A stretch of 64,000 bases of DNA from an uncultured Enterobacterales bacterium (GTDB lineage: Bacteria; Myxococcota_A; UBA796; CAJQPC01). This document shows positions 26,032 to 53,577 of this stretch, in pieces. Where the stretch lies: the NCBI GenBank assembly GCA_964501915.1, contig CAZCVP010000003.1, positions 19,259 to 83,258 on the forward strand. Reading direction: 5' to 3'. The position numbers and the translations under genes are program-made. Under the pieces are notes generated by a model. The model was not told the DNA's origin and did not search any database. It worked only from the letters and a program-made list of their open reading frames with translations. Numbering within the stretch: the first letter of the stretch is position 1; each line of letters starts with the position of its first letter.

Positions 26032-26082
26032 GTCCCGATCGGGTGGTCCCCCGGTCCCTGCCGACTACACTGCCGCCTGCGG

Positions 26083-27867: not shown

Positions 27868-28997
27868 TGGCCAACCTCGGCTACGTCCAGCTCACCCGCA
27901 ACTGCCTCCAGCGGTGTCGCTTCTGCTCCAACCCCCCCACGGGGGTCGGCCTCGACGTCGACGGTCTCCACCACCTCATCGATCGCATGGCCGAGATGGA
28001 CTACGACGGCATCATCCTCACCGGCGGTGAGCCCAGCGCCTCGCCGCTGCTCTTCCCGGCGCTGGAGCGGGCCCGCGAGCGGGGGCTCACCAGCCGGATG
28101 ATCACCAACGGCCAGTACCTCGCCGAGCCGAAGTTCTTCCGGGCCTGCGTCGACGCGGGCCTGACGCATGTGCACCTGAGCCTGCACTCCTGGCGGCCAG
28201 CGGTGCACGACTTCATCACCCGCTACCCGGGGGCCCACGAGGCCCTCGTCGCGGCGCTGCGGCAGGTGCCGGCGCTGGGCATCACCGCCGACATCAACTG
28301 CGTCATCAACACCTACAACGCCGACCACCTCGACGAGAGCGTCGTCTGGCTCTGCGAGAGCTTCCCCTTCGTGCGGCACTTCGTCTGGAACCACATGGAT
28401 CCCGACGGCAACCGGGCCGAGGACAACCCCGACTGCGTCCCCCACCTCAGGGAATTCCTGGTCTCCCTGGAGCGGGCCATGGTCTACCTGGACGGCACGG
28501 GCCGCAGCTTCCGGGCCGAGCGGGTGCCCCTGTGCGCGATGCCGCGCTTCGGCTGGGCCTCCACCGAGACCCGCAAGATCGTCAAGGAGGAGGAGCGCTG
28601 CATCCACTTCCTCGACGGCAAGGGCTGGGTCCACCAGGTCGAGTTCCTGCACGGCAAGGCCGACGTGTGCGGGGACTGCTCCTACGACCCCATATGTGCC
28701 GGGCTCTACTCCATGGCCCGGTCCTTCGACGAGCGGGAGCTGAGCCCGATCTTCGAGCCGATCGGTCCCGTGGTGGAGCGGGTCCTCGGACATCCTGCCT
28801 CCCCCGAACTGCTGAGCCGGATCGAGGCTCGCCGGGGTCGGCGCTCCCCGACCGAACAGCCCACGGAGGCCCGACGAGCGGCCTGGCTGGCCCGTCCGAT
28901 GGCCTCTCCTCCGGACCTCGCAGCGGCTCCCGAAGCGGTTTCGGTGACCAGAGACCCCACGACATCTGCTAGAGTGCCCACGCGAGACCGTCCATGA
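27867..28997 (+). CDS. radical SAM protein (operon A, gene 4)
   Basis: TGATG overlap with the upstream gene. 376 aa. Motifs: CLQRCRFC, LTGGEPS, VPLCAMP and CGDCSYDPICAG tail. Confidence 0.85.
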   Translation: MANLGYVQLTRNCLQRCRFCSNPPTGVGLDVDGLHHLIDRMAEMDYDGIILTGGEPSASPLLFPALERARERGLTSRMITNGQYLAEPKFFRACVDAGLTHVHLSLHSWRPAVHDFITRYPGAHEALVAALRQVPALGITADINCVINTYNADHLDESVVWLCESFPFVRHFVWNHMDPDGNRAEDNPDCVPHLREFLVSLERAMVYLDGTGRSFRAERVPLCAMPRFGWASTETRKIVKEEERCIHFLDGKGWVHQVEFLHGKADVCGDCSYDPICAGLYSMARSFDERELSPIFEPIGPVVERVLGHPASPELLSRIEARRGRRSPTEQPTEARRAAWLARPMASPPDLAAAPEAVSVTRDPTTSARVPTRDRP

Positions 28998-38192: not shown

Positions 38193-38699
38193 ATGGACAG
38201 CCGCATGGATTCACGCCGAGACCTCATCAAGAAGCTCGCGGTCGGCGCAGCCGCCGTCACCGCCCTGCCCGCTCCCCGGGCACAGGCTGCACGCTTCGTG
38301 GAGTACCTGGCCCCGGGTCCGGACCCGACCTGGTTGATCGCCCCTCTGTCTGCCGGCGACGGCATCGGCCACGGGTGGAGGCTGCGCGGCATCTCGACCC
38401 CCCGCCGCGGAGCCGTGGTGCTGGACCTCGTGCACGAGACCCTGGCGCCGGTCCAGGTCCACCTCTGCGCCCACCGCGGAGCCCCAAAGGGCGTCGCCCA
38501 CAGCCACTTCCTCGACTTCGTGCTCATGGACGGAGGCCAGGGCGACCGGCGGACCGAGGAGTCCATCGGACGGGCCCTGCGAGCCCTGGCCCACACCGTC
38601 GCCCGCAACGAGCTGGCGGCCGAGTCCGATCCAGCCCTGCTCGGACGCCTGATGACCCACGGTGAGCGGGTCGAGCGCTTCGGCCCCGAGGCCCTCTGA
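38193..38699 (+). CDS. TAT-signal hypothetical protein, first gene of the HXS-like block
   Basis: MDSRMDSRRDLIKKLAVGAAAVTALPAPRAQA contains a twin-arginine motif (SRRDLIKK). Its stop overlaps the next start (TGATG). Confidence 0.6.
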   Translation: MDSRMDSRRDLIKKLAVGAAAVTALPAPRAQAARFVEYLAPGPDPTWLIAPLSAGDGIGHGWRLRGISTPRRGAVVLDLVHETLAPVQVHLCAHRGAPKGVAHSHFLDFVLMDGGQGDRRTEESIGRALRALAHTVARNELAAESDPALLGRLMTHGERVERFGPEAL

Positions 38700-39145
38700 T
38701 GGCGGAGGGCACGTCGGAGACATCCTCCCAGGAGCTGGTGTTCGAGACCGCTGAGCGGAGGGTCACCTTCGAGATCGACGAGGAGATCTACCCCCGCGAC
38801 GCGATCTACGGCGCGGCCTACCTCTTCATGGATCGCTGCTACCTCTTCCTGGGCCGCCCGGCGGATCGCATCGTGAGCGTGCAGCTCCGGACCCGGGGCG
38901 AGGCCGACGAGGAGACCCTGACGGAGCTGGCCGGCGAGTTCGCCAACGAGCTGCTCAACCAGGTCCTGCGCCTCCGCGTCGGCGAGGCCACCACCCGCAT
39001 CCGTGAGTACACCCTGGCCAAGGCCTTCTTCTCCGACCCCGGCCGCAGCACCATCGATGCCCTGCTGGCCGAGCTGGACGCCGAGGAGCTCGACGAGGAC
39101 CCCCTGGAGATCGAAGTGCCCTGGGAGACCTCCACGGATGGCTGA
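38699..39145 (+). CDS. HxsD-like protein
   Basis: 148 aa. The pattern IYPRDAIYGAAYLFMDRCY ... FANELLNQVLRLRVGEATTRIREYTLAKAFF resembles my recollection of His-Xaa-Ser system protein HxsD (TIGR03976, signature LLNDYxLRE followed by ...IR...AKAF). Not verified by search. Confidence 0.5.
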   Translation: MAEGTSETSSQELVFETAERRVTFEIDEEIYPRDAIYGAAYLFMDRCYLFLGRPADRIVSVQLRTRGEADEETLTELAGEFANELLNQVLRLRVGEATTRIREYTLAKAFFSDPGRSTIDALLAELDAEELDEDPLEIEVPWETSTDG

Positions 39146-39356
39146 GCTGACCTTCTCCCGCTCGCTCTACCGTCCCGATGCCGTCCAGACCGCCGCACGG
39201 ACCTTCGAGAAGCTGGCCCGTGTCGAGGTCCGGGTCGAGGAAGACCAGGTCGTGGTGGTCCTCGATGACCCCCACCCGGCCCTGGCCCACAAGCTGGCCG
39301 ACGAGCTGGCCAACCACGCCCTCCACCACACGATCGTCGCGGAGCGGGAGATCTAG
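39138..39356 (+). CDS. short HxsD-like paralog
   Basis: 8-nt overlap with the upstream gene. The 72-aa product is MAELTFSRSLYRPDAVQTAARTFEKLARVEV...LADELANHALHHTIVAEREI, which repeats the Y..DA...AA..F and EL.N.aL pattern of the preceding gene. Confidence 0.45.
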   Translation: MAELTFSRSLYRPDAVQTAARTFEKLARVEVRVEEDQVVVVLDDPHPALAHKLADELANHALHHTIVAEREI

Positions 39357-39503: not shown

Positions 39504-39965
39504 ATGCCCGCCATCGACCTCGAGCCCACCCTGGTCCTGCGGCCGATCCCCCCCGCGGACTCCCCCCGGGTCGCCGCCAGCTTCGACCCCCACGCCGGCG
39601 TCTACCAGCTCCACGTGCCGCGACCGCTCCATGCCGCCCCGTTCGCCATGACCCCGGCTGTGACCCGGTGGTTCCTGGATCGCCTCCTCCAGGTCCAGCA
39701 CCGCGGGCCCCGCCGTCACCTCGGCTGGCGGGGAGGCCGGGCGCTGGAGATCGCGACGGTCCACGAGCTCGGCAGCCCCATGATCCGGCTGCGACAGGTG
39801 GGACTGCCCCGCGCCGGGACCGGCTGGCAGCAGGAGCTGCGCTTCCCCGAGACCTGGCTGCTCGGCCTGCTGATCGCCCTGTCCCACGTCCACCAGAGGT
39901 GCAGCGAGGCCGGGACCGAGCGCCTCCCACAGCGACGGGGATCGGCGCTACCCTCGGCGCACTGA
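39504..39965 (+). CDS. hypothetical protein
   Basis: 153-aa ORF from the internal ATG, with strongly G/C-biased third positions. No recognisable motif, and the start is uncertain (the ORF extends to 39372). Confidence 0.4.
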   Translation: MPAIDLEPTLVLRPIPPADSPRVAASFDPHAGVYQLHVPRPLHAAPFAMTPAVTRWFLDRLLQVQHRGPRRHLGWRGGRALEIATVHELGSPMIRLRQVGLPRAGTGWQQELRFPETWLLGLLIALSHVHQRCSEAGTERLPQRRGSALPSAH

Positions 39966-39977
39966 CCCGGGAGGCCC

Positions 39978-41588
39978 ATGCCCGTCCACCCCGACATCGC
40001 CGGCACCGGAAGCATGGTGGCCGACGCCATCTACCTCACCTCCCGCATCATCGGCCCCGAGGAGAAGGCCCTGCTGCTGGCCCACGGTGACGGGGCCGCC
40101 GTGCATCGCTTCGTGGGGGGGGTGACCCTCAACCACCTGGGCTGGGCCCGGCTCCTGGGCCTGGAGGTCGCCATCTTCGGCAAGCAGGCCGACGACGAGG
40201 CGGGCCGCTTCCTCCGGGCCGGCATGGAACGGGCCGGCATCCGGGCCCACCTCGACCTGTCGGGCGGAGCCAGCTCCGAGGCCAACATCTTCGTGGCCCC
40301 GGACGGCGGCCGGGCGATCTACATGGCCCGCGGCGCCACCGGGGACTTCACACCGGAGGAGGTCGACGCGGACTTCGGCGAGCTGATCGACCAGGCGCCG
40401 ATGGTCACGACCGAGATCAGCCAGCTCCCGCTGGCGACGGTGAAGCGGGTCCTGGAGCGGGCCCGGGCCGCGGGCGCTCGGACCGTGGTCGACTTCGACG
40501 TGCCCCTGGTCGACGCCGTGCCGGCCCTCGGCAGCCGCGAGGAGCTGGAGGAGGTCCTGGGGCTGACCGACGTCCTCAAGCCGTCGCTGGCAGCCATGGA
40601 GGGCTTCGTCGACACGTCGTCTCCGGAGGCGACCGCGCGGGCGCTGGCGAGCACCTACGGGTGCCGCCTCGTGGCGATCACCGACGGCGAGCGGGGCTCC
40701 ACGGTGCTGGCCGGCGACACCCTGGCCCACGTGCCGAGCGTGGCGATCGAGGTCGTGGACACGACCGGCGCCGGAGACGCCTTCCTCGGCGGGTTCGTGG
40801 CCGGCCTCCGCCTCGGCCTGGACCCGGTCGCCGCCGCGCGCCTGGGCAATGCCTGCGGCGCCACCTGCTGCGAGCGCCTGGGGGCCTTCCCCGAAGACGC
40901 CGAAGCGTGCCGGGCCCGCATCCTCCAGCTCCACCAAGCCATGGGCGGACAGCCGCTCTGCATCGACGTGGTCGACACACCACCCCCCTCGTTGCCGGCC
41001 CTGGAGACCTTCTGCGAGACCGCCGCCACCGAGGTCTCGCTCACCACCCAGGACCTCGACCGCGCGGCCGTGGCCGCGGCGGCGGACCTGATCGCCGCCC
41101 GGAGAGCGCAAGGGAGCCGGGTCCACGTGACGGGAGTCGGCAAGCCGGCCTACGTCGCGGGCTACGTCGCCAGCCTGCTGTCGAGCACCGGCACACCGGC
41201 GACCTTCCTCCACGGCACCGAGGCCACCCACGGCAGCGTGGGCCAGCTCGAGCCAGGGGACGTGGTCATCGCGATCTCGAACAGCGGCGGGACCCGGCAG
41301 CTGGTGGCCTCGGCCCGGGCCGCGGTCGGACGAGGAGCCCACCTCGTCGCCGTCACCGGAGGCGCGGACTCCGAGCTGGCCGACCTCGCCGAGGTCGTGC
41401 TGCTCGCCTCCGTCGCCTCCGAAGGGGGGCCGCTGGGCCTGGCACCGCGGGCGAGCGTGCTGAACGAGCTGGTCGTGCTGATGGCCCTGTCGGTGGCCCT
41501 GCAGGAGCGACGCGGGCTCGATCGGGAGCAGTACCACGCCCGGCACCCGGCGGGGGCGCTGGGCACGGCGAGCGCCGGGCCGACCTGA
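39978..41588 (+). CDS. PfkB-family carbohydrate kinase fused to a SIS (sugar isomerase/phosphosugar-binding) domain
   Basis: 536 aa. Ribokinase-like motifs: GGVTLNH and VVDTTGAGDAFLGGF. The C-terminal SIS pattern is VHVTGVGKPAYVA...GDVVIAISNSGGT...LVAVTGG. Confidence 0.85.
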   Translation: MPVHPDIAGTGSMVADAIYLTSRIIGPEEKALLLAHGDGAAVHRFVGGVTLNHLGWARLLGLEVAIFGKQADDEAGRFLRAGMERAGIRAHLDLSGGASSEANIFVAPDGGRAIYMARGATGDFTPEEVDADFGELIDQAPMVTTEISQLPLATVKRVLERARAAGARTVVDFDVPLVDAVPALGSREELEEVLGLTDVLKPSLAAMEGFVDTSSPEATARALASTYGCRLVAITDGERGSTVLAGDTLAHVPSVAIEVVDTTGAGDAFLGGFVAGLRLGLDPVAAARLGNACGATCCERLGAFPEDAEACRARILQLHQAMGGQPLCIDVVDTPPPSLPALETFCETAATEVSLTTQDLDRAAVAAAADLIAARRAQGSRVHVTGVGKPAYVAGYVASLLSSTGTPATFLHGTEATHGSVGQLEPGDVVIAISNSGGTRQLVASARAAVGRGAHLVAVTGGADSELADLAEVVLLASVASEGGPLGLAPRASVLNELVVLMALSVALQERRGLDREQYHARHPAGALGTASAGPT

Positions 41589-41654: not shown

Positions 41655-44600
41655 ATGACTCCTCTGTTCGCCCTTCTCCTGCTGGCCGGCTGCCCGGACC
41701 AGAACATCGGCCGCTACGTCGCGCCGCCCGTGGTGGCGATCGAGAACCCCAAAGAGGGCGACGAGCTCTACGAAGGCGTCTCCGTCGGCATGGTCGGCGT
41801 GGTCGCCGACGAGGCCTACTCGACCCGCCTCGACCAGCTCACCGTCCTGTGGCTGGTCAACAACGAGCGCGTCTGCGACGACGCCACCCTCGACGTCAGC
41901 GGTGTGACGGTCTGCGAGCACGTCTTCCCCGTCGGCGAGGCGGAGATCCTGCTCTCGGCGACCAACCCCGACGGCGAGGCCGACGACAGCACCGTGGTGG
42001 TGACCGTGCTGGCCAACGGCGCTCCCACCCTCGACATCGAAGCCCCCACCGCCGACAGCAGCTACTACAGCGACCACCTCGTCGAGCTGAAGGCCACCGT
42101 GAGCGACCCCGAGGACCCCTCGGAGGACCTCAGCGTCACGTGGGTGGGAGCCGGTCCCGACGAGTGGTCCGTCGACACGGACCCGACCAGCGACGGGACG
42201 GCACTGGGCTCGATCCACATGGAGAGCGGGGAGTGGTTCATCACCGCCACCGTCAAGGACACCGTGGGCCGGACCGCCCAGGACAGCGTGACCATCCTCG
42301 TGGGCGAGCCGAACAACCCGCCCGAGTGTGCCATCACCTCTCCGGAGAGCGGCTCCGGGGTCGCGGAGGGCAAGGCCACCTTCTTCGAGGGCACGGCCAG
42401 CGACGCCGACGTGGCCTCGGACATGCTGACCGCGGAGTGGAGCAGCGACCTCGACGGCCCGCTGGGAAGCTCCACCGTGCCGTCCGATGGCAACCTGACC
42501 TTCAGCGCCTCGTCGTTGTCCACCGGGGCCCACACCATCACGCTCCAGGTCGCCGACGAGGTCGGCACGACCTGCACCGACAACATCCAGTTCCTGGTCG
42601 GCACCCAGCCCTTCGTCACCATCACGGCTCCGACCTCCGGCGACACGTCGAACCAGGGCGACTCGGTGCTCTTCGAGGCCCTGGTCCAGGACCTGGACCA
42701 CGACCCCACCCTGGTGACCCTGAGCTGGTCGAGCACCCTGGACGGCGTCTTCAACGACCAGTCCGCCACCAGCGCCGGCGAGACCACCTTCACCACCCAG
42801 GCGCTGTCCGCCGGCGCCCACACCATCACCCTGTCCGCCATGGACCCCGAGGGCTTCACGGGCAGCGACTCGATCTCGTTCACGGTCAACGGGCTCCCGG
42901 ATCCCCCGGACGTGGAGATCACGCCCGACCCGGCGACCTCGGCCGACGACCTCAACGTGAGCATCGTCATCGACGCCATCGACCCCGAAGGCGACACGAT
43001 CACCTACGCCTACGCCTGGTACCAGGACGGCCTCGCGACCAGCCACACGAGCGGCTTGTTGCCCTCGTCCGCGACCACCCGCGGCGAGACATGGCGGGTC
43101 GACGTCACCCCGCACGACGGGCTCGGCACCGGCGATCCGGGCAGCGACACGGTGACCATCGAGAACGCTCCGCCCAGCATCGCGCTGGTCGCCCTGACCC
43201 CCGATCCGGCCGACGTCACCGACACCCTCACCTGCGCGGTGGTCGGCTCCAGCGATGCCGACGGCGACACCGTGACCCTGGCCTACGCCTGGACCGTCAG
43301 CGGCAGCACGATCTCCCACTCCAGCACGACCCTGAGCAGCGACTTCGCCAAGGGCGACACGGTCACCTGCACGGTCACCCCCACCGACGGCAGCGCCACC
43401 GGCACGCCGGTCACCTCCAACACGCTGACCATCGTCAACTCGGCGCCCAGCCTCACCAGCGTGAGCCTCACGCCGACCAGCCCCGGCGTCGGCGACACCC
43501 TCACCTGCACACCCAACGGCGCCTCGGACGCCGACGGCGACGCCATCTCCTACGCCACCGCCTGGACGGTCGGCGGGGTCACGATCAAGTCCACCGGTGA
43601 GACCCTCACCTCGCCGGACTTCGCCAGGGGCGACGAGGTGTACTGCACCGTCACGCCGACCGACGGCACCGACGCCGGCACGGCGGTCGACTCGAACACC
43701 GTCACCATCGGCAACACCGCCCCCGAGCTCAGCGAGGCCTCCCTGTCCCCGGACCCGGCCTACGAGGCCGACACCGTCGTCTGCACGCCGGGATCGTCCA
43801 GCGACGCCGACGGCGACAGCGTCACCTACACCTATGCCTGGACGATCGACGGCGGCAGCACCTCCGCCACCTCGAGCAGCCTCACGGGCAGCGACTTCGA
43901 CAAGGGAGACGACGTCGTCTGCCTCGTCACCCCCAGCGACGGCACCGACGACGGCACCACCGTCTCCACCTCGGCCCTCACCATCTCCAACACGCCGCCG
44001 AGCGTGGCCAGCGCGTCGATCTCCCCGTCCACCGCCTACGTCGACGACCTGCTCTCGGTCTCGACGAGCGGCTGGAGCGACGACGACGGCGACACGGAGT
44101 CCTACCTCTACCAGTGGTACGTCAACAGCTCTCCGGTGTCGGGCGCGACCGTGAGCACCTTCTCCGGCAGCTTCGAGAAGGGCGACGTCGTCGAGGTGAT
44201 GGTCACCCCCTACGACGGCACGGACAGCGGCACCGCGGTGACGGCCTCCGCGGTGACCATCTCCAACTCGGCGCCGACGATCGACAGCGTGAGCCTCACC
44301 CCGACCAGCGCCACGGAGTCCAGCACCCTGACCTGTAGCGCCAACGGCACCGACGACGCCGACGGCGACAGCGTGAGCGAGTCCATCACCTGGTCGCTGA
44401 ACGGCGTCACCATCTCGGCCACGAGCACCACCCTCGACGGCGGGGACTTCTCCAAGGGCGACGAGGTGGTCTGCACGATCACCCCCGACGACGGCACGGA
44501 CACCGGGACGGCGGTGGACAGCAACACGGTCACCATCGCCAACACCCCACCCGTGCTGTCCAGCGTGACGCTCGGTCCGGACCCGGCCTATGAGAGCGAC

Positions 44601-46133
44601 ACCCTGACCTGCTCCCCCGGCTCCGACAGCGACGCCGACGGCGACGCCATCGCCCACACCTACGCCTGGGACGTCTCCGGGACCCCGCTGTCGGTCACCA
44701 GCACCACCCTGACCGGGTCCTACTTCACCAGGGGCGACTCGGTGAGCTGCACCATCACGCCGGACGACGGCGAGGACACGGGCACCTCCGTCAGCTCCAA
44801 CTCGATCACGATCTCCAACACGCCCCCCTCCGGCACCAGCGTCTCGATCAGCCCCACCAACCCGCTGGTCGACGACACCCTCACCGCCTCGGCGACCGGC
44901 TGGAGCGACGCCGACGGCGACAGCGAGGGCTGGCTCTACCAGTGGACCGTCAACAGCAGCGACGTCTCCGGGGCGACCTCGAGCGGCCTGGCCGGCGCCT
45001 TCTCCAAGGGCGACTCGGTGACGGTCACCGCCTGGCCCTGGGACGGCACCGACGCCGGCTCGGCGATCACCTCGTCCGCCGTCACCATCGGCAACACGGC
45101 GCCGACGGACCCCGTCATCTCGATCAGTCCGTCGAGCCCCGAGCCCGACGACGACCTGACCTGCACCCTGTCGACCTCCAGCACCGACGCCGACGGCGAC
45201 AGCCTCAGCTACACCTACGTCTGGGACCAGAACGCCGTCGTCACCAGCTACACCACCAACACCGTGCCCAGCAGCGCCACCGCCCACGGCGACACCTGGG
45301 GCTGCTGCGTCTACGCCAGCGACGGCACCGACACCTCGGCCACGGTCTGCGAGACGGTCAACGTCTCCGACAACACCGCGCCGAGCGCACCCACCATCAG
45401 CAGCATCGACGCCTACCGCAACGAGGCCGACGTCGACCTGTCCGGGTCCTGCGAGGCGAGCTGCAGCCTGGTCTTCTACCTCTCCGACAGCACGGGCTCG
45501 TGGACCGAGTCGGCGACCTGCTCCTCGTCGTCCACCTTCAGCCACACCTCGTACCTGACCCGGGGCGACGACACCGACATCTTCGCCACCTGCGAGGACA
45601 CGGCCGGCAACGTCTCCGGGGCCTCGAACACCGTCACCACCCAGGTCTGCGACCCGGAGGACATCTTCGACGGCTCGAGCTTCTCCAGCGGCTACGGAGA
45701 CAGCGAGTCCAGCCCCGTCGACTACTGGGGCACACTGAACGACGACGGGAGCGTGCTCATCGAGATCGACGGCAACATCGTGTCGACGGGCGACGAGGAC
45801 TGGTTCGTCATCCACACCAACGACTCCGTCTACGGCCTCGGCTCCGGCTCGCCCACCTACGACTTCTACCTGCTGATGTCCGACGGCGTGGGGACCTACG
45901 CCTTCTACGTCTACAAGGACTCCGTCGGCTCTTCCACCCTGGAGTGCTCCGGCGAGACCGACGGCTACGACGAATTCGAATTCTACGACGCCCGCACGAG
46001 CTGCGGCACCACCGCGACCGACTACGACTGCAGCTACAAGGACCTCTCCCACGACTGGTACATCGAGGTCGTTCGCGACCCGAGCGTGTCAGCGTCGTGC
46101 CAGGGGTATACACTGGAAATCACCAACGGCTGA
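41655..46133 (+). CDS. giant modular surface lipoprotein (Ig-like domains, about 9 x 92-aa DxDGD modules, Ig-like + PPC-like C-terminus)
   Basis: 1492 aa. MTPLFALLLLAGC lipobox. The N-terminal region (PPVVAIENPKEGDELYEG...) and the C-terminal region (SGSCEASCSLVFYLSDSTGSWTE...EDTAGNVSG...DEDWFVI...WYIEV) are collinear with the 28994-31300 product. Confidence 0.85.
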   Translation: MTPLFALLLLAGCPDQNIGRYVAPPVVAIENPKEGDELYEGVSVGMVGVVADEAYSTRLDQLTVLWLVNNERVCDDATLDVSGVTVCEHVFPVGEAEILLSATNPDGEADDSTVVVTVLANGAPTLDIEAPTADSSYYSDHLVELKATVSDPEDPSEDLSVTWVGAGPDEWSVDTDPTSDGTALGSIHMESGEWFITATVKDTVGRTAQDSVTILVGEPNNPPECAITSPESGSGVAEGKATFFEGTASDADVASDMLTAEWSSDLDGPLGSSTVPSDGNLTFSASSLSTGAHTITLQVADEVGTTCTDNIQFLVGTQPFVTITAPTSGDTSNQGDSVLFEALVQDLDHDPTLVTLSWSSTLDGVFNDQSATSAGETTFTTQALSAGAHTITLSAMDPEGFTGSDSISFTVNGLPDPPDVEITPDPATSADDLNVSIVIDAIDPEGDTITYAYAWYQDGLATSHTSGLLPSSATTRGETWRVDVTPHDGLGTGDPGSDTVTIENAPPSIALVALTPDPADVTDTLTCAVVGSSDADGDTVTLAYAWTVSGSTISHSSTTLSSDFAKGDTVTCTVTPTDGSATGTPVTSNTLTIVNSAPSLTSVSLTPTSPGVGDTLTCTPNGASDADGDAISYATAWTVGGVTIKSTGETLTSPDFARGDEVYCTVTPTDGTDAGTAVDSNTVTIGNTAPELSEASLSPDPAYEADTVVCTPGSSSDADGDSVTYTYAWTIDGGSTSATSSSLTGSDFDKGDDVVCLVTPSDGTDDGTTVSTSALTISNTPPSVASASISPSTAYVDDLLSVSTSGWSDDDGDTESYLYQWYVNSSPVSGATVSTFSGSFEKGDVVEVMVTPYDGTDSGTAVTASAVTISNSAPTIDSVSLTPTSATESSTLTCSANGTDDADGDSVSESITWSLNGVTISATSTTLDGGDFSKGDEVVCTITPDDGTDTGTAVDSNTVTIANTPPVLSSVTLGPDPAYESDTLTCSPGSDSDADGDAIAHTYAWDVSGTPLSVTSTTLTGSYFTRGDSVSCTITPDDGEDTGTSVSSNSITISNTPPSGTSVSISPTNPLVDDTLTASATGWSDADGDSEGWLYQWTVNSSDVSGATSSGLAGAFSKGDSVTVTAWPWDGTDAGSAITSSAVTIGNTAPTDPVISISPSSPEPDDDLTCTLSTSSTDADGDSLSYTYVWDQNAVVTSYTTNTVPSSATAHGDTWGCCVYASDGTDTSATVCETVNVSDNTAPSAPTISSIDAYRNEADVDLSGSCEASCSLVFYLSDSTGSWTESATCSSSSTFSHTSYLTRGDDTDIFATCEDTAGNVSGASNTVTTQVCDPEDIFDGSSFSSGYGDSESSPVDYWGTLNDDGSVLIEIDGNIVSTGDEDWFVIHTNDSVYGLGSGSPTYDFYLLMSDGVGTYAFYVYKDSVGSSTLECSGETDGYDEFEFYDARTSCGTTATDYDCSYKDLSHDWYIEVVRDPSVSASCQGYTLEITNG
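42891..45368 (+). repeat. about nine tandem 276-bp coding modules (about 92 aa each)
   Basis: The modules begin N(A/S/T)(A/P)P and carry L(T)C....SDADGD...Y.Y.W...G..........F.KGD.V.C.VTP.DG.D.G. The protein-level periodicity is clear, but the DNA copies are diverged. Confidence 0.75.
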
Positions 46134-46141
46134 GCTCGACC

Positions 46142-46408
46142 ATGGCCCGACACGACGACCACAACGACGACGTCCCGGAGATCCCGGCGCTCGATCGCAA
46201 GCCCACCCAGTTCCTACAGAAGCAGGAGCTGGGACAGGTGAACGAAGAGCCCTCGCCGTCGCTGCTGCTGTTGCAGGCGGCCGACTCCCTGGAGCTCGAC
46301 CCGGACATGCTGGACCGGAACGCTCCGTTCCCGAACCTGCTGGCGACACACTGCTCGCATGGCTCCCACGGCTCCCACGGCTCCCACGGCTCCCACGGCC
46401 AGTGGTAG
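46142..46408 (+). CDS. His-Gly-Ser repeat peptide (HxsA-like candidate precursor)
   Basis: 88 aa: MARHDDHNDDVPEIPALDRKPTQFLQKQELGQVNEEPSPSLLLLQAADSLELDPDMLDRNAPFPNLLATHCSHGSHGSHGSHGSHGQW. It starts 8 nt after the lipoprotein stop and ends 6 nt before the first rSAM gene. Confidence 0.7.
   Translation: MARHDDHNDDVPEIPALDRKPTQFLQKQELGQVNEEPSPSLLLLQAADSLELDPDMLDRNAPFPNLLATHCSHGSHGSHGSHGSHGQW
46358..46399 (+). repeat. 9-bp tandem repeat (CAY GGC TCC) x4 plus a partial copy, encoding (His-Gly-Ser)n
   Basis: catggctcc cacggctcc cacggctcc cacggctcc cacggc, read directly from the sequence. Confidence 0.9.
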
Positions 46409-46414
46409 GCGCCG

Positions 46415-47419
46415 GTGGGTGAGGCCCACCGCGAGCGCCCCCCGGTCGGTCAGCTCGTCCTCACCGTCACACGCGGCTGCAACTACCGCTGCAGCTACTG
46501 CCCGACCGCGAAGGAGGGCTGGCCGAGCCTGACGACCGCGGACGCCGTCCACGCCGTCACGCTCTTCGCCGAGCGCTACGGCGGCGGAGACGTCAAGCTC
46601 TTCGGCGGCGAGCCCCTGCTGGAGCCGGAGGTCGTGGACGCCGCCATCGAGCGCTCGGTCGCGGAGCCGCGCATCCGGCGGATCTACCTGTCGACCAACG
46701 GCCTGGCCCTGGACGAGGGCTGGCTGGAGCGGCTGCGGAGGACCCCCAAGCTCGTCCTGACGCTCTCGCTGGACGGCTCCCCCGAGGACCACCGCCGCTT
46801 CCGGCGGGCCCTGCCCGGAGTGGCCGACAGCTACGACCGGGTGCTCGCCCTGCGGCCGCTGTTGCTCCAGACGCCCCGGGTGGTGGTGACGCAGACCGTG
46901 CCGCCCGCCTCGGCGGAGCGCGGCGCCGCGAACTTCAAGCATCTTCTTGATCTCGGCTTCAGGCGCTTCAACCTGCTTCCTGGGTACTTCATGCCCTGGA
47001 GGTCGGCCCAGCTCGGCGCCCTGCGCACCTCCCTCGCAGGCATCGGAGACGCGGTCATCGGCCTCTGGCGGGCCGGCGAGCGGGTCTACGTGCGCAACCT
47101 CTTCACACGAGCGCCGACGCCCTTCTTCAACACGGGCCTGGTGGTCGACAGCGATCGCACGATCCACCCGAGCAACGTCGGCCTGAGCGGCGCCCTGGAC
47201 GAGCTCCGAGACCGGACCCGGGTGGGCACGCTCGACGAGCCGCCGGCGCCCGAGGTGCTCGCCGAAGGGGCACACCGCGTCAACGCCCTGCTCGCCGAGA
47301 GCCTGCCGGACGGTGTCTGGCGGAGCACCCTGGCGGTCGACGCCGAGCTGACCCGCCTCGTGGAGCGCCTCTACCCGGAGTTCTTCGCCTGGCGCCAACG
47401 CCGCCGCGGTGCGGCATGA
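46415..47419 (+). CDS. radical SAM protein (block B, gene 1; candidate HXS maturase)
   Basis: GTG start. 334 aa. Motifs: CNYRCSYC and FGGEPLL. It has no additional Cys residues, so no auxiliary-cluster tail. Confidence 0.8.
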   Translation: MGEAHRERPPVGQLVLTVTRGCNYRCSYCPTAKEGWPSLTTADAVHAVTLFAERYGGGDVKLFGGEPLLEPEVVDAAIERSVAEPRIRRIYLSTNGLALDEGWLERLRRTPKLVLTLSLDGSPEDHRRFRRALPGVADSYDRVLALRPLLLQTPRVVVTQTVPPASAERGAANFKHLLDLGFRRFNLLPGYFMPWRSAQLGALRTSLAGIGDAVIGLWRAGERVYVRNLFTRAPTPFFNTGLVVDSDRTIHPSNVGLSGALDELRDRTRVGTLDEPPAPEVLAEGAHRVNALLAESLPDGVWRSTLAVDAELTRLVERLYPEFFAWRQRRRGAA

Positions 47420-48399
47420 GGCCGGGAGCCACCCCCTGGCTCCACCCGGACGGCCGGGTGATGCGCCGCCTGGAGCTCCACCTCACCTACACCTGTCCCG
47501 AGCGGTGCGTGTTCTGCTCCGAGCAGCACCGGATGGAGCGCTACGAGGCCTTCCCGGTGACCTGGGGCCGGGTGGCGACGGTGCTGCGCACGATGGCCGG
47601 CCGCGGCGTCGAGGCGGTCCACCTGACGGGGGGAGAGCCGACCCTCCACCCGAAGTTCGTCGAAGTCTGCGCCCTGGCGAAGAAGCTGGGGCTGCGGACC
47701 TCGATCGGCACCATCGGTACCCGACTGAGTCGGGAGGACTTCGCTCGCCGCGCCCTGCCGGTGCTGGACGAGGCCCTGTTCAGCCTCCACGGACCGACCG
47801 CAGAGGTCCACGATCCGCTGGTCGGCCGGGCGGGCAGCTTCGAGCGCGTGGTCCGGGCGATCGAGACCTGCCGCGGCCTCGACCCCGACTTCGACGTCTT
47901 CGTGAACACGGTGCTCACACCGACGAACGTGGAGCAGCTCGGCGACACCGTCGAGCTGGCCGAGGGCCTCGGTGCCCGCCTCATCGTCGTGTCGAACACC
48001 ACGCCGGAGGGCGGGGCCGAGGACCGCTACGAGGAGCTGGCGATCCCGCTGGAGCGCCTGGCCGCCGTCCTGCCGATCGCCGCGAAGCGGGCCCGACAGG
48101 CCGTCGTGCGCTTCTTCGGGGTGCCGATGTGCCTCCTGGGAGAGTCCTGGGCCCTGTCCAACGACCTCCACTGGGATCCACGGGTCACCGTGGAGTGGCA
48201 GAGCCGGCCCGGCAAGGTGGCCTTCGACGGCATCTACAACTGGGACCCGGGCCGCAAGCGTACCCACGTGGAAGTGTGTGAGCGCTGCGACCGGAGGGGG
48301 ATCTGCTTCGGGGTCTTTCGGGCCTACCGGGCGAAATTCGGCTCCGCGGGCCTGGTGGCGACGACGACCCACTCCGCAGGGGCTACTCTGACCCCGTGA
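47416..48399 (+). CDS. radical SAM protein with CxxCx5CxG tail (block B, gene 2; candidate HXS maturase)
   Basis: ATGA overlap with the upstream gene. 327 aa. Motifs: CPERCVFC, LTGGEPTL, GVPMC, CERCDRRGICFG. Confidence 0.85.
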   Translation: MRPGATPWLHPDGRVMRRLELHLTYTCPERCVFCSEQHRMERYEAFPVTWGRVATVLRTMAGRGVEAVHLTGGEPTLHPKFVEVCALAKKLGLRTSIGTIGTRLSREDFARRALPVLDEALFSLHGPTAEVHDPLVGRAGSFERVVRAIETCRGLDPDFDVFVNTVLTPTNVEQLGDTVELAEGLGARLIVVSNTTPEGGAEDRYEELAIPLERLAAVLPIAAKRARQAVVRFFGVPMCLLGESWALSNDLHWDPRVTVEWQSRPGKVAFDGIYNWDPGRKRTHVEVCERCDRRGICFGVFRAYRAKFGSAGLVATTTHSAGATLTP

Positions 48400-49430
48400 C
48401 CGCACCGACTCCGACCGCCGACAAGTCCCGCCTCTTCGAGGTCCAGCGAGACCGCCGGGTCAACGTGGAGATCAACGTCGGCAAGGCCTGCAACAACAAG
48501 TGCGTCTTCTGCCTCGACGGGCTGCCGAAGAGAGAGGACCGCTCCTTCATCTCCCTCGAAGACATGAAGGCCGAGCTGGAGCGCTTCTACGCCGAGGGGG
48601 CCCGCTCCGTCGGCTTCCTCGGGGGAGAGCCGACCACCTTCCCCAAGCTCCCTCACTCCATCGCCCACGCCCGGGACCTCGGCTACACGCGCATCGCCAT
48701 CGCCACCAACGGCACCCGGCTGCGCCTGCCCCACTACACCGAGCGGCTGCTGGAGGCCGGGCTCACCCGGGTGACGGTCAGCACCCACGGCCACACACGA
48801 CAGCTCGAGGACCGGCTGACCCGCGTGCCGGGCAACTTCGAGAAGAAGCGCCAGGCCCTGGAGCTGCTGGTGGCGGCCCGCGACGCCGGACGGCTCGTGG
48901 ACAACGTCTCCGTGAACATCGTGGTCAACGGCTGGAACTACGAGGTCCTGCCGAAGATGCTGAGGTACTTCTACAGCCTGGGCATCGATGACGTGCGGGC
49001 GAACTTCATCCGCACCGAGGGCTACGCCGAAGACGATCCCACGCTCACGCCGACCTATCGCGAGGTCGTGCCGGTGCTGGTGAAGACGGTCCTGCTCAAC
49101 GAGTTCCACTGGAAGAAGAACTTCACCTTTGGTGGCTTCCCGGTGTGCGTGCTGCCGCTGGAGCTGATCGGAAACTGGCGTCTCGCCCAGCGCTACATCG
49201 GCGAGTTCCGGGACCTGGACACCAACTGCTCCATCCGAGCCGAGGGCGACCACGGGGTCGCCACCGAGAGCGGTGGTCGTGCCCGCTTCAACTGGCAGGA
49301 CCGCAAGCGCCACGACCTCAAGCACCACCTCGAGACCTGCCGCGGCTGCCGCTACAGCGAGGTCTGCGAGGGGGTCTGGGGCTACTACCTCGGGGCCCAC
49401 GGCGAAGGGGAGTTCGCCGCGATCCCCTGA
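48396..49430 (+). CDS. radical SAM protein with CxxCx5CxG tail (block B, gene 3)
   Basis: GTGA overlap with the upstream gene. 344 aa. Motifs: CNNKCVFC, LGGEPTT, GFPVC, CRGCRYSEVCEG. It is collinear with the N-terminal part of the 26083-27867 product. Confidence 0.85.
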   Translation: MTAPTPTADKSRLFEVQRDRRVNVEINVGKACNNKCVFCLDGLPKREDRSFISLEDMKAELERFYAEGARSVGFLGGEPTTFPKLPHSIAHARDLGYTRIAIATNGTRLRLPHYTERLLEAGLTRVTVSTHGHTRQLEDRLTRVPGNFEKKRQALELLVAARDAGRLVDNVSVNIVVNGWNYEVLPKMLRYFYSLGIDDVRANFIRTEGYAEDDPTLTPTYREVVPVLVKTVLLNEFHWKKNFTFGGFPVCVLPLELIGNWRLAQRYIGEFRDLDTNCSIRAEGDHGVATESGGRARFNWQDRKRHDLKHHLETCRGCRYSEVCEGVWGYYLGAHGEGEFAAIP

Positions 49431-52404: not shown

Positions 52405-53577
52405 TCAGCCCTCGTGCAGGGCCTCCAGGGCCCGCAGCAGCCGCTCACCGACCGCCGTGGGGCGAGCCTTCGCGCTGAGGGTCGCCAGCCCACGGGCGTT
52501 GGCGGCGCATACCTCCTCGCGCCGTCGCGCGAAGTGCGGGCTGCGAGAGATGGGGTGGTCGGTGGCGGCCAGGCAGGCGTGCATCCGGGCCACCGGCACG
52601 AAGGCGTGGACCGCCAGGAGCACACCCATCAGCGGGCGCAGGTCCGGACGCACCGGCGACTCGGTCCACTCGGAGTGCCCGTTGTGCAGCACCGGGTCGA
52701 GCCAGGACAACAGGTTCAGCTTGCTGTGCTGGGCCTCGTGGACGATGGCCTCGGCGAGGGTCAGGGGCTCCGGGTGGAGGGTCAGCCAGGCGATGCCCGG
52801 CGCCTCCCGGTAGCTCGCGCTGAGGTGCCGCTCGGGCTCGTACCCCACCGGCACGAGCCGTTCGAGGCTCCACGTCCGCTCCTCGGCCCAGGTCGGCAGG
52901 CCGAGCCGCACCAGCTCCAGCGCACCGCCCAGGGCAGCGGTCCACTGGCCCGGGGAACGACCCCCGAGGTCGACGTGGTTGCCGGCCTTGTCCGGGTGGG
53001 CCTCGACCGCCGACAGGGGGTGGGTGTCGAGCACGGTGAGGTGGAGGTCATCGAGGACGGCGTGGTACGGCGCCAGACCGCCCGGGTGCGGGAGGTGCGC
53101 CAGGCTCCCGTCGGCGAGGCGCAGCTCGACGCCCGCTGGATCGCACACCATGCCGCGGGCCGGCGGATCGAAGGTCCAGGCTCGGCCGAGTCGAGGCACG
53201 GCCAGGCGGCGGACCGGGTGGTCCCAGCGCACGGCCTCCCTCGGTGGGCTGGCGAGGGCGCCGAGCAGGTTGGGCACGGCCTCCGCGATGCGCTCGGCGG
53301 GATCGGTCACCCCACTCGCCACGCACAGGAGGTGTGGGAGCACGTCCGGCGCCCCGATCGCCCCGAGCACCGGGCCGGGACGGTCGCGGAGGGCCTCGAG
53401 GAGCCAGCCCTGGAAGCGAAGCAGCGGACGGGACACCGGACCTTCGACCCGAGCCGTGGCCAGGGTGCGGACGGCGAGCAGCCGGACCTTGTGCCGCAGC
53501 GTGCGCACCGTGGCCTCCCCAGGCGCCGGCACCACCAGGAATCCGCTCTCGACCACCGACCCTCCCACTCGGTCCAT
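52405..53577 (-). CDS. HEXXH-motif domain protein (TIGR04267-like putative peptide-modifying enzyme)
   Basis: 390 aa with AIVHEAQHSKLN (HExxH followed by ...KL) in the C-terminal third. Overall size and architecture match my recollection of the 'HEXXH motif domain' family. Not verified. Confidence 0.55.
   Translation of the reverse strand: MDRVGGSVVESGFLVVPAPGEATVRTLRHKVRLLAVRTLATARVEGPVSRPLLRFQGWLLEALRDRPGPVLGAIGAPDVLPHLLCVASGVTDPAERIAEAVPNLLGALASPPREAVRWDHPVRRLAVPRLGRAWTFDPPARGMVCDPAGVELRLADGSLAHLPHPGGLAPYHAVLDDLHLTVLDTHPLSAVEAHPDKAGNHVDLGGRSPGQWTAALGGALELVRLGLPTWAEERTWSLERLVPVGYEPERHLSASYREAPGIAWLTLHPEPLTLAEAIVHEAQHSKLNLLSWLDPVLHNGHSEWTESPVRPDLRPLMGVLLAVHAFVPVARMHACLAATDHPISRSPHFARRREEVCAANARGLATLSAKARPTAVGERLLRALEALHEG

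What the first reader, a model, noticed from the sequence alone, without database searches (positions are those of the whole stretch)
46142..46408. 88-aa candidate precursor with an acidic leader and a C-terminal (His-Gly-Ser)n core encoded by a 9-bp microsatellite
Seen: the ORF sits in an 8-nt / 6-nt sandwich between the lipoprotein stop and the first rSAM start. The leader is acidic (MARHDDHNDDVPEIPALD...LELDPDMLDRNAPFPNLL). The last 20 residues are THC-SHG-SHG-SHG-SHG-SHG-QW. The core is encoded by catggctcc followed by three perfect cacggctcc units and a partial copy (46358-46399).

Inference: the leader/core organisation and the position directly upstream of rSAM genes are typical of RiPP precursors. 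The perfect 9-bp tandem repeat could also expand or contract by slippage in units of one HGS triplet. That would give strain-to-strain core-length variation without any frameshift.
Basis: partly seen in the sequence, partly recalled or inferred. Interest (0 to 1): 0.8.

Follow-up and report, generated by a model that had tools for sequence, protein, structure and literature searches.

The report
Short His-Gly-Ser repeat precursor (HxsA4 type)
The 88-codon gene is real: it encodes a small peptide with a His-Gly-Ser repeat tail that belongs to an already catalogued but never studied branch (HxsA4) of the radical-SAM "His-Xaa-Ser" systems, here with an unusually short repeat tract and without one of the usual enzymes.

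Summary
The ORF, the 8-nt and 6-nt gaps, the 9-bp array at 46349-46399 and the three radical-SAM (rSAM) genes downstream are all there.

The ORF is a real gene. Forty-three genome loci and 35 metagenome loci, mostly labelled Myxococcota, carry the same small gene in the same frame. All of them end in H[C/A]S-H[G/A]S-(HGS)n-HG-QW. Against the sister species, the leader has 24 synonymous and 5 non-synonymous codon changes. The repeat units use 64 different 9-mers, yet 92% of them encode HGS.

Relatives, including the sister ortholog, pass NCBIfam NF038313 (HxsA4). The window's copy scores 30 against a cut-off of 55 because its array has only 5 units; the family median is 15-16 and the range is 3-58.

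Bona fide HxsD and HxsD-like genes lie 7 kb upstream. All 33 other relatives with enough upstream flank, L079 excepted, have a true HxsB directly before the precursor. The 64-kb window has none.

An otherwise identical 20-kb contig differs only by loss of three perfect 9-bp units. This fits slippage, but collapse of the repeat during assembly is not excluded.

The function is untested. The only studied Hxs system, in E. coli, is an anti-phage system. This is a new member of a known kind, of moderate interest.

The parts
46142..46408 (+). Precursor gene (88 aa), HxsA4 class. Leader is aa 1-69 (46142-46348); the H-x-S core plus HGQW is aa 70-88 (46349-46405); stop at 46406-46408.
   Evidence: Translation. 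Ortholog alignment with conserved LPxLxRxPxxFLQxxE, LLLLxA..DP and H[C/A]SH[G/A]S...HGQW. Leader against sister L005: 24 synonymous and 5 non-synonymous codon differences, with differences by codon position 6/2/25. NF038313 score 30.1 for the window and 69.4 for sister L005.
46349..46399 (+). 9-bp tandem array CACGGCTCC encoding H-x-S units: HCS, then HGS x4, then a partial HG.
   Evidence: TRF period 9, 5.7 copies, score 81. The three perfect units 46367-46393 are exactly what is missing in L002 and L003.
46415..47419 (+). rSAM enzyme R1 (334 aa). It has only the CxxxCxxC cluster and no auxiliary-cluster cysteines.
   Evidence: Pfam Radical_SAM 70 bits. Best NCBIfam hit is PapB at 75 bits against a cut-off of 340; HxsB scores 27 bits. 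Cysteine conservation in 40 orthologs. It follows the precursor in 51 loci.
47416..48399 (+). rSAM enzyme R2 (327 aa), HxsC-like, with four further conserved Cys (C239, C288, C291, C297).
   Evidence: NCBIfam HxsC4 80.7 bits and HxsC TIGR03977 66.9 bits, both below their cut-offs. Cysteines. 26% identical to R3 over the full length. ATGA overlap with R1.
48396..49430 (+). rSAM enzyme R3 (344 aa), HxsC4-like, with five further conserved Cys (C251, C278, C315, C318, C324).
   Evidence: NCBIfam NF038332 HxsC4 153 bits over the full length, against a cut-off of 500. 473 database homologs with E<=1e-10 and 418 genome loci. Cysteines.
38699..39145 (+). HxsD (148 aa).
   Evidence: NCBIfam TIGR03976 62.6 bits, above the cut-off of 50. 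Precomputed Pfam PF27806 HxsD. Conserved upstream of the precursor in relatives. AF2 model pLDDT 85.9.
39138..39356 (+). HxsD-like protein (72 aa).
   Evidence: NCBIfam NF038315 59 bits, above the cut-off of 41. Overlaps the end of HxsD by 8 nt. Conserved next to HxsD in relatives.
38193..38699 (+). Tat-signal protein of unknown fold (168 aa). It is conserved immediately before HxsD.
   Evidence: TIGR01409 Tat signal 19.6 bits, above the cut-off of 16.7. Conserved position. 16 homologs with invariant H90, C92, D108, M112 and others. AF2 pLDDT 80.5 with no PDB fold match.
41655..46133 (+). Giant lipoprotein (1492 aa) with Ig-like/PKD repeats. Its stop lies 8 nt before the precursor. Homologs flank the cluster in at least 9 relatives.
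   Evidence: Lipobox in the translation. Pfam Big_7 and PKD. Homologs lie directly upstream of the Tat protein in L007, L009, L011, L018, L040, L058, L064, L072 and L079.

Best explanation
The ORF is a genuine, translated precursor peptide of the HxsA4 class of His-Xaa-Ser (Hxs) radical-SAM systems. Its acidic N-terminal part of about 69 aa carries the family's conserved motifs and most likely serves as the recognition (leader) region. Its C-terminal H-C-S/(H-G-S)4/H-G-Q-W tail is the substrate.

Inferred maturation. The three translationally coupled rSAM enzymes directly downstream are R1, HxsC-like R2 and HxsC4-like R3. Helped by the HxsD and HxsD-like proteins encoded 7 kb upstream, they install a covalent modification on each S-H-x-S unit. 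This is by analogy with the +8 Da change mapped to SHRSS in E. coli HxsA. The product is then released or exported to act in the cell envelope as a multivalent His array, together with the co-conserved Tat-exported protein and the surface lipoprotein.

Array length. The array evolves by in-frame gain and loss of 9-bp units. This lineage has a very short array (5 units, or 2 in a sister contig). It has also lost the HxsB enzyme that nearly all relatives keep directly upstream of the precursor.

Shown: the gene is real, it belongs to this family, the cluster composition, the variation in array length and the absence of HxsB.

Inferred: which enzyme modifies what, the chemistry, export, and the biological role.
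For: The gene is real.
- The same frame and the same C-terminus occur in 43 genome loci and 35 metagenome loci.
- The leader has 24 synonymous against 5 non-synonymous codon changes relative to L005.
- Of 624 repeat units, 576 encode HGS while using 64 different 9-mers and both serine codon families (TCN 471, AGY 152).

Family.
- Relatives score 69-143 bits on NF038313 HxsA4, cut-off 55.
- The window's leader is 55-59% identical to those of L007, L011 and L079.
- HxsD passes TIGR03976 and the HxsD-like protein passes NF038315.
- R2 and R3 match HxsC and HxsC4 over nearly their full length with E 1e-15 to 1e-45.

Conserved cluster.
- The order Tat protein, HxsD, HxsD-like, HxsB, precursor, R1, R2, R3 is seen in relatives.
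- Start and stop codons overlap by 4 nt between R1 and R2 and between R2 and R3.

Precedent.
- In E. coli, HxsB, HxsC and HxsD are all needed to mature HxsA.
- A +8 Da modification maps to one HxS repeat there (PMC13128918).

Slippage.
- L002 is identical to the window over 20,267 aligned nt apart from one 27-nt gap.
Against: - The window's own peptide fails every curated HxsA cut-off: HxsA4 30.1 against 55 and HxsA 31.9 against 121.65.
- HxsB is essential in E. coli, yet it is absent from the whole 64-kb window.
- R1-R3 do not reach the HxsC or HxsC4 cut-offs.
- R3-family genes also occur alone in 17 of 68 assessable loci, without any precursor. R3 may therefore have another substrate.
- No protease or transporter is evident in the cluster.
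- The peptide has no signal peptide, no peptidoglycan-binding domain and no basic residues apart from His. This differs from E. coli HxsA, so its role may differ.
- The HxsD model does not show a PqqD-type leader-binding fold.
- No expression or chemical data exist.
Confidence: 0.8

Rival explanations
1. The product has the same identity but works as an anti-phage effector like E. coli HXS. The matured His-repeat peptide sits in the periplasm and blocks entry of phage DNA.
For: The only experimentally studied Hxs system is a broad anti-phage system whose HxS repeats are each essential (PMC13128918). The HxsD and HxsC-like components are shared. Rapidly changing repeat number would suit an arms race.
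Against: - The peptide lacks the signal peptide, the peptidoglycan-binding domain and the basic residues that the E. coli model relies on.
- No PADLOC hit appears apart from generic viperin-like rSAM similarity.
- The cluster keeps the same gene order in dozens of the fetched, mostly Myxococcota-labelled, loci rather than appearing in varied defence islands.
- That paper found 99.7% of HxsA in Pseudomonadota and 99.8% of systems with just four genes.
Confidence: 0.3
2. The product has the same identity but is a metal-binding peptide, a metallophore or periplasmic metal buffer. The modified (His-Gly-Ser)n array chelates Ni, Zn or Cu and works with the Tat-exported protein.
For: The array holds 5-58 regularly spaced imidazoles plus a conserved first-unit Cys (27 of 47 non-HGS units are HCS). 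The co-conserved Tat protein has invariant His, Cys and Met residues. A free-running repeat number suits a capacity function.
Against: No metal transporter, TonB receptor or metal regulator was seen in the conserved cluster. The Tat protein's model matches no known metalloprotein fold. Nothing was tested directly.
Confidence: 0.3
3. The array is a multi-core precursor. It is cut into n identical small molecules derived from a modified tripeptide, for example a cofactor, so repeat number only sets the yield.
For: After the HxsC-type families, R2's next-best family hits include PqqE and the mycofactocin maturase MftC, enzymes that make small cofactors from peptides. Repeat number is unconstrained, from 3 to 58. 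An M3 oligoendopeptidase-like gene lies 5 kb downstream.
Against: Those hits lie far below their cut-offs, and the same rSAM core matches many other families. The M3 gene is not conserved with the cluster; it is seen only in L002 (the window's own population) and the sister L005. The invariant C-terminal HGQW and the distinct first unit suggest that one intact product is read from end to end.
Confidence: 0.1
4. The ORF is spurious: a GC-rich intergenic microsatellite that happens to be open.
For: No Pfam hit. No recognisable Shine-Dalgarno or promoter signal. At 71% GC, many false ORFs occur.
Against: The ORF is conserved in frame in 78 loci. Synonymous differences dominate (24 against 5; codon positions 6/2/25), and serine codons switch between TCN and AGY while HGS is kept.
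Confidence: 0.02

Closest known systems
HxsA4, 'His-Xaa-Ser repeat protein HxsA4' (NCBIfam NF038313), with HxsD-like NF038315
   Same: Peptide of about 80-180 aa with the conserved leader motifs and a C-terminal H-x-S array ending in HGQW. Orthologs, including sister L005 with a 93% identical leader, pass the model's cut-off. The neighbouring HxsD-like protein passes NF038315.
   Different: The window's peptide scores only 30.1 bits against the cut-off of 55, because it has 5 units where the family median is 15-16. No paper on HxsA4 was found. The companion model 'HxsC4' (NF038332, cut-off 500) is not reached by any rSAM tested here; the best score is 153 bits.
Canonical HXS anti-phage system of E. 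coli and Klebsiella: HxsD-HxsB-HxsC-HxsA (TIGR03976-03979; Haft and Basu 2011, cited as ref. 22 of PMC13128918; Li et al. 2026, PMC13128918)
   Same: A target with tandem His-Xaa-Ser repeats, an HxsD protein that passes the curated cut-off, and rSAM enzymes homologous to HxsC that carry a C-terminal Cys cluster. In most relatives a true HxsB (489 bits against a cut-off of 370) sits next to the precursor.
   Different: - The E. coli target covers at least residues 1-214, with a signal peptide, a peptidoglycan-binding domain and 5 basic HxS repeats. Here it is an 88-aa acidic-leader peptide with H-G-S units at its C-terminus.
- The gene order is different.
- Three extra or divergent rSAMs replace the single HxsC.
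- There are two HxsD paralogs plus a Tat protein and a lipoprotein.
- HxsB is absent from this window.
- The relatives fetched here come almost only from MAGs labelled Myxococcota, Deltaproteobacteria, Polyangiaceae or Elusimicrobia, or from mostly marine metagenomes. The canonical system is 99.7% Pseudomonadota.
Repeat-motif rSAM RiPPs such as triceptides (three-residue cyclophanes, including His-containing HaaB and HtkB products)
   Same: A short motif repeated in a C-terminal core, with rSAM enzymes encoded alongside. His side chains can be cross-linked by such enzymes (abstract of PMC11499958).
   Different: R1-R3 match the cyclophane-forming families only weakly: FxsB 29 bits and YhhB 28 bits for R1. 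None of the three matched a Pfam SPASM domain. The chemistry is unknown. The reported +8 Da in E. coli HxsA is not the -2 Da expected for a simple cross-link; that expectation is my own knowledge.

Membership tests
HxsA4 (NCBIfam NF038313) | Whole-protein score at or above the curated cut-off of 55 bits | tested here: not met
   The window peptide scores 30.1 bits, and only aa 69-88 align. The shortfall tracks array length: L058 with 6 units scores 34.5, while L005, L011, L018, L029, L045, L055 and L081 with 9-35 units score 69-143.
HxsA4 (NCBIfam NF038313) | Orthology to proteins that pass the model: same leader motifs, same C-terminal HGQW, same neighbours | tested here: met
   The leader has 67 of 72 codons identical at protein level to L005, which passes at 69.4 bits. 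It is 55-59% identical to L007, L011 and L079. R1-R2-R3 follow the gene in all of them.
His-Xaa-Ser (Hxs) system | Target protein with tandem His-Xaa-Ser repeats (HxsA, TIGR03979, cut-off 121.65) | tested here: inconclusive
   Five H-x-S units are present. The TIGR03979 score is 31.9 bits (E 1e-7), far below the cut-off. The motif is shared, but the protein is not an equivalog of HxsA.
His-Xaa-Ser (Hxs) system | HxsB rSAM/SPASM maturase (TIGR03978, cut-off 370) encoded with the target | tested here: not met
   tblastn of four HxsB orthologs against the whole window finds only weak similarity to rSAM cores (best E 2.5e-4, on R1). R1 scores 27 bits on TIGR03978. All 33 other relatives with enough upstream flank, L079 excepted, carry HxsB at 489-491 bits where tested. 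Whether HxsB lies elsewhere in this genome cannot be seen from 64 kb.
His-Xaa-Ser (Hxs) system | HxsC rSAM maturase (TIGR03977, cut-off 267.9) | tested here: not met
   R2 scores 66.9 bits and R3 57.0 bits, aligned over profile positions 22-256 of 292. They are homologous paralogs with conserved C-terminal Cys, not equivalogs.
His-Xaa-Ser (Hxs) system | HxsD (TIGR03976, cut-off 50) | tested here: met
   Window 38699-39142 scores 62.6 bits. The precomputed Pfam assignment is PF27806 HxsD. The sequence contains ELLNQVLRLR, which resembles the LLNDYxLRE motif.
His-Xaa-Ser (Hxs) system | Anti-phage activity through a periplasmic, peptidoglycan-anchored effector | not testable with these tools
   The peptide gives no Pfam domain hit, so no peptidoglycan-binding domain, and no N-terminal hydrophobic signal-like stretch is apparent by eye. 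There are no PADLOC hits beyond generic viperin-like similarity. Activity needs an experiment.
RiPP precursor (generic) | Leader/core layout next to modifying enzymes, with the leader conserved and the core carrying the modified motif | tested here: met
RiPP precursor (generic) | PqqD-like RiPP recognition element, leader peptidase and exporter in the cluster | tested here: not met
   The HxsD model (pLDDT 85.9) resembles Rpb11/Pcc1-type dimerisation modules (E about 1e-3, TM 0.4-0.55), not a winged-helix RRE. No peptidase or transporter lies in the conserved block.

The most novel reading that the evidence does not exclude
This lineage, and independently L079, runs an Hxs-type maturation pathway without HxsB, the enzyme that is essential in E. 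coli. If so, the R1-R2-R3 trio is a self-sufficient maturation machine of its own kind. Its product would then be a length-polymorphic, polymer-like modified (His-Gly-Ser)n peptide whose activity scales with repeat number, and whose length can change between otherwise identical genomes (2 against 5 units with 0 substitutions in 20 kb).
Probability: 0.25. Interest if true: 0.65.

Novelty: new member of a known kind. Interest (0 to 1): 0.45.

Why it matters
The chemistry of the Hxs modification is still unsolved. The one experimental study could not reconstitute it and saw only a +8 Da change on one repeat of an insoluble protein.

HxsA4 peptides are small and acidic, and they carry 5-58 near-identical S-H-G-S units. 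Each modification would therefore be multiplied many times in a mass spectrum or NMR sample. That makes this family, and especially short natural arrays like this one, a convenient substrate for working out what Hxs rSAM enzymes do.

The natural HxsB-less clusters offer a built-in genetic test of which enzyme is needed for which step. The family is also widespread in the fetched, mostly uncultured (MAG and metagenome) Myxococcota-type genomes. It shows that automated annotation misses short-array members.

Tried and rejected
Searches that found nothing useful:
- Pfam on the precursor gave no hit.
- PADLOC gave only generic viperin-like rSAM hits.
- Rfam on the whole window gave no hit.
- The promoter and terminator scan of 38-50.7 kb was uninformative.
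- PDB sequence searches with the Tat protein, R1 and R3 gave only distant rSAM cores.
- The exact-pattern scan of metagenome contigs for this population's allele returned 0, so no further alleles of the same strain could be collected.
- No paper on HxsA4 or SHG/HGS-repeat rSAM peptides was found.
- Haft and Basu 2011 is not held in the library.

Structure models:
- The Tat protein gave a good AF2 model (pLDDT 80.5) but no PDB fold match (best E = 1).
- I modelled HxsD expecting a PqqD-like RRE. It resembles Rpb11/Pcc1 modules instead, and only weakly.

Ideas tested and dropped:
- That the 153-aa ORF at 39504-39965 is a remnant of HxsB. There is no similarity.
- That the Elusimicrobia rSAMs define the 'HxsC4' model. 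None of them passes its cut-off.
- The spurious-ORF idea, rejected on the comparative evidence.

Full report
**1. The observation**

- Window 46142-46408 (+) is an ATG-initiated ORF of 88 codons: MARHDDHNDDVPEIPALDRKPTQFLQKQELGQVNEEPSPSLLLLQAADSLELDPDMLDRNAPFPNLLAT-HCS-HGS-HGS-HGS-HGS-HG-QW*.
- The upstream ORF 41655-46133 encodes a 1492-aa lipoprotein (lipobox LLLAGC; Big_7 and PKD repeats). It ends 8 nt before the ATG.
- A GTG-initiated rSAM ORF starts 6 nt after the stop.
- TRF scores it 81 (period 9, 5.7 copies). That is the top tandem array in the window.
- Three rSAM ORFs follow, at 46415-47419, 47416-48399 and 48396-49430. Their start and stop codons overlap by 4 nt, and each has CxxxCxxC and a Pfam Radical_SAM hit.

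**2. The gene is real**

A genome-collection scan with an alignment of the third rSAM (R3) found 418 relatives, and 79 loci were fetched. A metagenome scan with R1 added 73 more loci.

- In 43 genome loci and 35 metagenome loci with readable arrays, a small ORF in the same position and frame ends in H[C/A]S-H[G/A]S-(HGS)n-HG-QW. The ending is AW in Elusimicrobia.
- Leaders share LPxLxRxPxxFLQxxE, LLLLxA...DP and LA-x-H.
- Against the sister species (L005; R3 82% identical), the first 72 codons differ at 29 codons, 24 synonymous and 5 non-synonymous. Nucleotide differences fall 6/2/25 on codon positions 1/2/3.
- Across 624 repeat units in the genome loci there are 64 different 9-mers, yet 576 units encode HGS. 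The rest are mostly first-unit HCS or HAS.
- Serine is written with both TCN (471) and AGY (152) codons. Only selection on the peptide explains this pattern.

**3. What family it belongs to**

Precursor.
- NCBIfam gives weak, sub-threshold hits for the window peptide to all four His-Xaa-Ser repeat models: HxsA 31.9, HxsA4 30.1, A2 21.3 and A3 15.2 bits.
- Its orthologs pass the curated cut-off of NF038313, 'His-Xaa-Ser repeat protein HxsA4'. They score 69.4 (L005), 73.5, 79, 92, 96, 118 and 143 bits against a cut-off of 55.
- Another short-array member, L058 with 6 units, scores 34.5. The window peptide therefore fails only because its array is short.

HxsD proteins.
- Seven kb upstream, 38699-39145 passes TIGR03976 HxsD (62.6 against 50).
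- The overlapping ORF 39138-39356 passes NF038315, 'HxsD-like protein' (59 against 41).
- The ORF just before them, 38193-38699, has a twin-arginine signal.

rSAM enzymes.
- R3 matches 'HxsC4' NF038332 over its full length, but at 153 bits against a cut-off of 500.
- R2 matches HxsC4 (81 bits) and HxsC (67 bits).
- R1 matches PapB-type enzymes best (75 bits) and HxsB only at 27 bits.
- R2 and R3 are full-length paralogs, 26% identical.
- Each carries 4-5 further conserved Cys, whereas R1 has only the SAM-cluster Cys.

**4. The conserved cluster and what is missing here**

A tblastn map of the window's genes onto the loci shows the common order: [giant lipoprotein] - Tat protein - HxsD - HxsD-like - a gene of about 500 aa - precursor - R1 - R2 - R3.

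- The 500-aa gene is a bona fide HxsB (TIGR03978, 489-491 bits against a cut-off of 370).
- HxsB is present directly before the precursor in all 33 relatives with enough upstream flank other than L079.
- Two lineages lack it there:
  - the window lineage (window, L001-L003 and sister L005), where a 153-aa ORF, a PfkB/SIS gene and the lipoprotein occupy the space;
  - L079, where the HxsD-like gene abuts the precursor.
- L079's leader is closer to that of HxsB-bearing L011 than to the window's, so the two losses look independent.
- No HxsB is detectable anywhere in the 64-kb window. Whether one lies elsewhere in the genome cannot be told.
- R3-family genes also occur on their own in 17 of 68 assessable loci, one of them 79% identical to the window's R3. 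R3's tie to the precursor is therefore strong but not exclusive.

**5. Repeat-number variation**

- Complete arrays have 5-35 units in the genome loci, with a median of 15.
- In the metagenome loci they have 3-58 units, with a median of 16. The window's 5 units are near the bottom of the range.
- Two JGI contigs from other samples (L002, L003) carry the identical leader but only 2 units (P0001, 79 aa).
- L002 aligns to the window over 20,267 columns with 0 mismatches and one 27-nt gap. The gap removes exactly the three perfect CACGGCTCC units.
- This is what replication slippage would produce. It would imply a repeat mutation rate far above the substitution rate.
- Caveats:
  - L001 and L003 end 170 and 78 nt after the ORF.
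  - At least 25 contigs in the two scans start inside the array, and two more have N-runs inside it.
  - Short-read assemblers evidently struggle here, so any single count may be wrong.
- The large between-species range also includes contigs whose names suggest long-read assemblies, such as L007 (18 units) and L074 (7 units), so that range is probably real.

**6. How it most likely works**

The only experimental work on any Hxs system is Li et al. 2026 (PMC13128918).

- HxsC binds HxsD.
- A +8 Da modification maps to the SHRSS repeat, and every HxS repeat is essential.
- The system blocks phage DNA entry.
- The chemistry is unresolved and in-vitro reconstitution failed.

By homology, I infer the following for this locus.

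- The peptide's H-x-S units are modified by the adjacent HxsC-like rSAMs, with the HxsD paralogs as partners.
- The conserved acidic leader mediates recognition.
- The HxsD model (pLDDT 85.9) is a beta-beta-alpha-beta-beta-alpha module that weakly resembles Rpb11/Pcc1 dimerisation domains. It is not a PqqD-type RRE. This fits an adaptor role better than a classical leader-binding domain.
- The co-conserved Tat-exported protein and the Ig/PKD lipoprotein point to an envelope-related role. The Tat protein has invariant H90, C92, D108, M112, E123, H156 and others, and no known fold.

What the product does cannot be decided. Possible roles are anti-phage barrier, metal binding, or something else. 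The peptide lacks the signal peptide, the peptidoglycan-binding domain and the basic residues of E. coli HxsA. The cluster also keeps the same gene order across dozens of the fetched, mostly Myxococcota-labelled, loci rather than looking island-like.

**7. Novelty and verdict**

- The peptide class already has a curated NCBIfam model, and the parent system is described, so this is a new member of a known kind.
- What is new is modest but concrete:
  - a short-array member that escapes automated naming;
  - an HxsB-less cluster in at least two lineages;
  - three rSAM partners that no curated model names;
  - direct evidence for extreme in-frame variation of repeat number, including within one near-clonal population.
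- No paper on HxsA4 was found.
- Interest is 0.45. The family offers a tractable substrate for solving the Hxs chemistry, but the finding itself fits an existing frame.

Noticed in passing
window 23489-27867 (+) and 28994-31300 (+): A second set of rSAM genes. It comprises 23489-24847 (452 aa, CNERCPFC), an rSAM-like ORF at about 24870-26031 with no CxxxCxxC seen, and 26083-27867 (594 aa, CNNRCLFC, 39% identical to R3 over the core). A lipoprotein follows whose N-terminus resembles that of the 1492-aa lipoprotein. No repeat peptide was found beside them.
   Followed up: partly
window 52408-53556 (-): An aKG-HExxH-type peptide beta-hydroxylase (TIGR04267, 91.7 bits against a cut-off of 40). In many relatives its homolog lies downstream of the Hxs4 cluster, next to 2-3 further R2/R3-like rSAM paralogs. 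This suggests a second peptide-modification cluster nearby.
   Followed up: partly
L006:2979-4010; also L016, L031, L032, L042, L047, L048, L052 and others: R3-family rSAM genes, 57-79% identical to the window's R3, stand alone without a precursor, R1 or R2. In L006 the neighbours are a 486-aa and a 416-aa ORF. R3 may have a role outside the Hxs4 cluster.
   Followed up: partly
window 38193-38699 (+): A Tat-signal protein conserved immediately before HxsD. Its AF2 model is confident (pLDDT 80.5) but matches no fold in the PDB. Invariant residues include H90, C92, D108, M112, G114, G115, E123, N139, E140, H156, E158 and R159.
   Followed up: yes
L080:221-601, L081:6526-7065, L083:1-210 (contigs labelled Elusimicrobia): HxsA4-type peptides occur outside Myxococcota. 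They have a hydrophobic, signal-like segment in the leader (AAAVLGIVGTAML...ALAQS), 16-35 units in the two complete arrays (L083's 20 is a truncated, minimum count), and AW instead of QW at the C-terminus of two of the three (L081, L083). L081 has HxsB plus four further rSAM genes.
   Followed up: partly
L119 and L124: Two separate HxsA4-type precursor genes on one short metagenome contig. L124, for example, has arrays of 22 and 27 units with different leaders.
   Followed up: no
window 39504-41588 (+): A 153-aa ORF with no family hit and a PfkB-kinase/SIS fusion gene occupy the place where relatives have HxsB. They are not seen in the clusters of other lineages.
   Followed up: partly
window 1097-2434 (-): Another rSAM gene (445 aa) with its CxxxCxxC motif at residue 181, which suggests an N-terminal extra domain. 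It was not examined.
   Followed up: no
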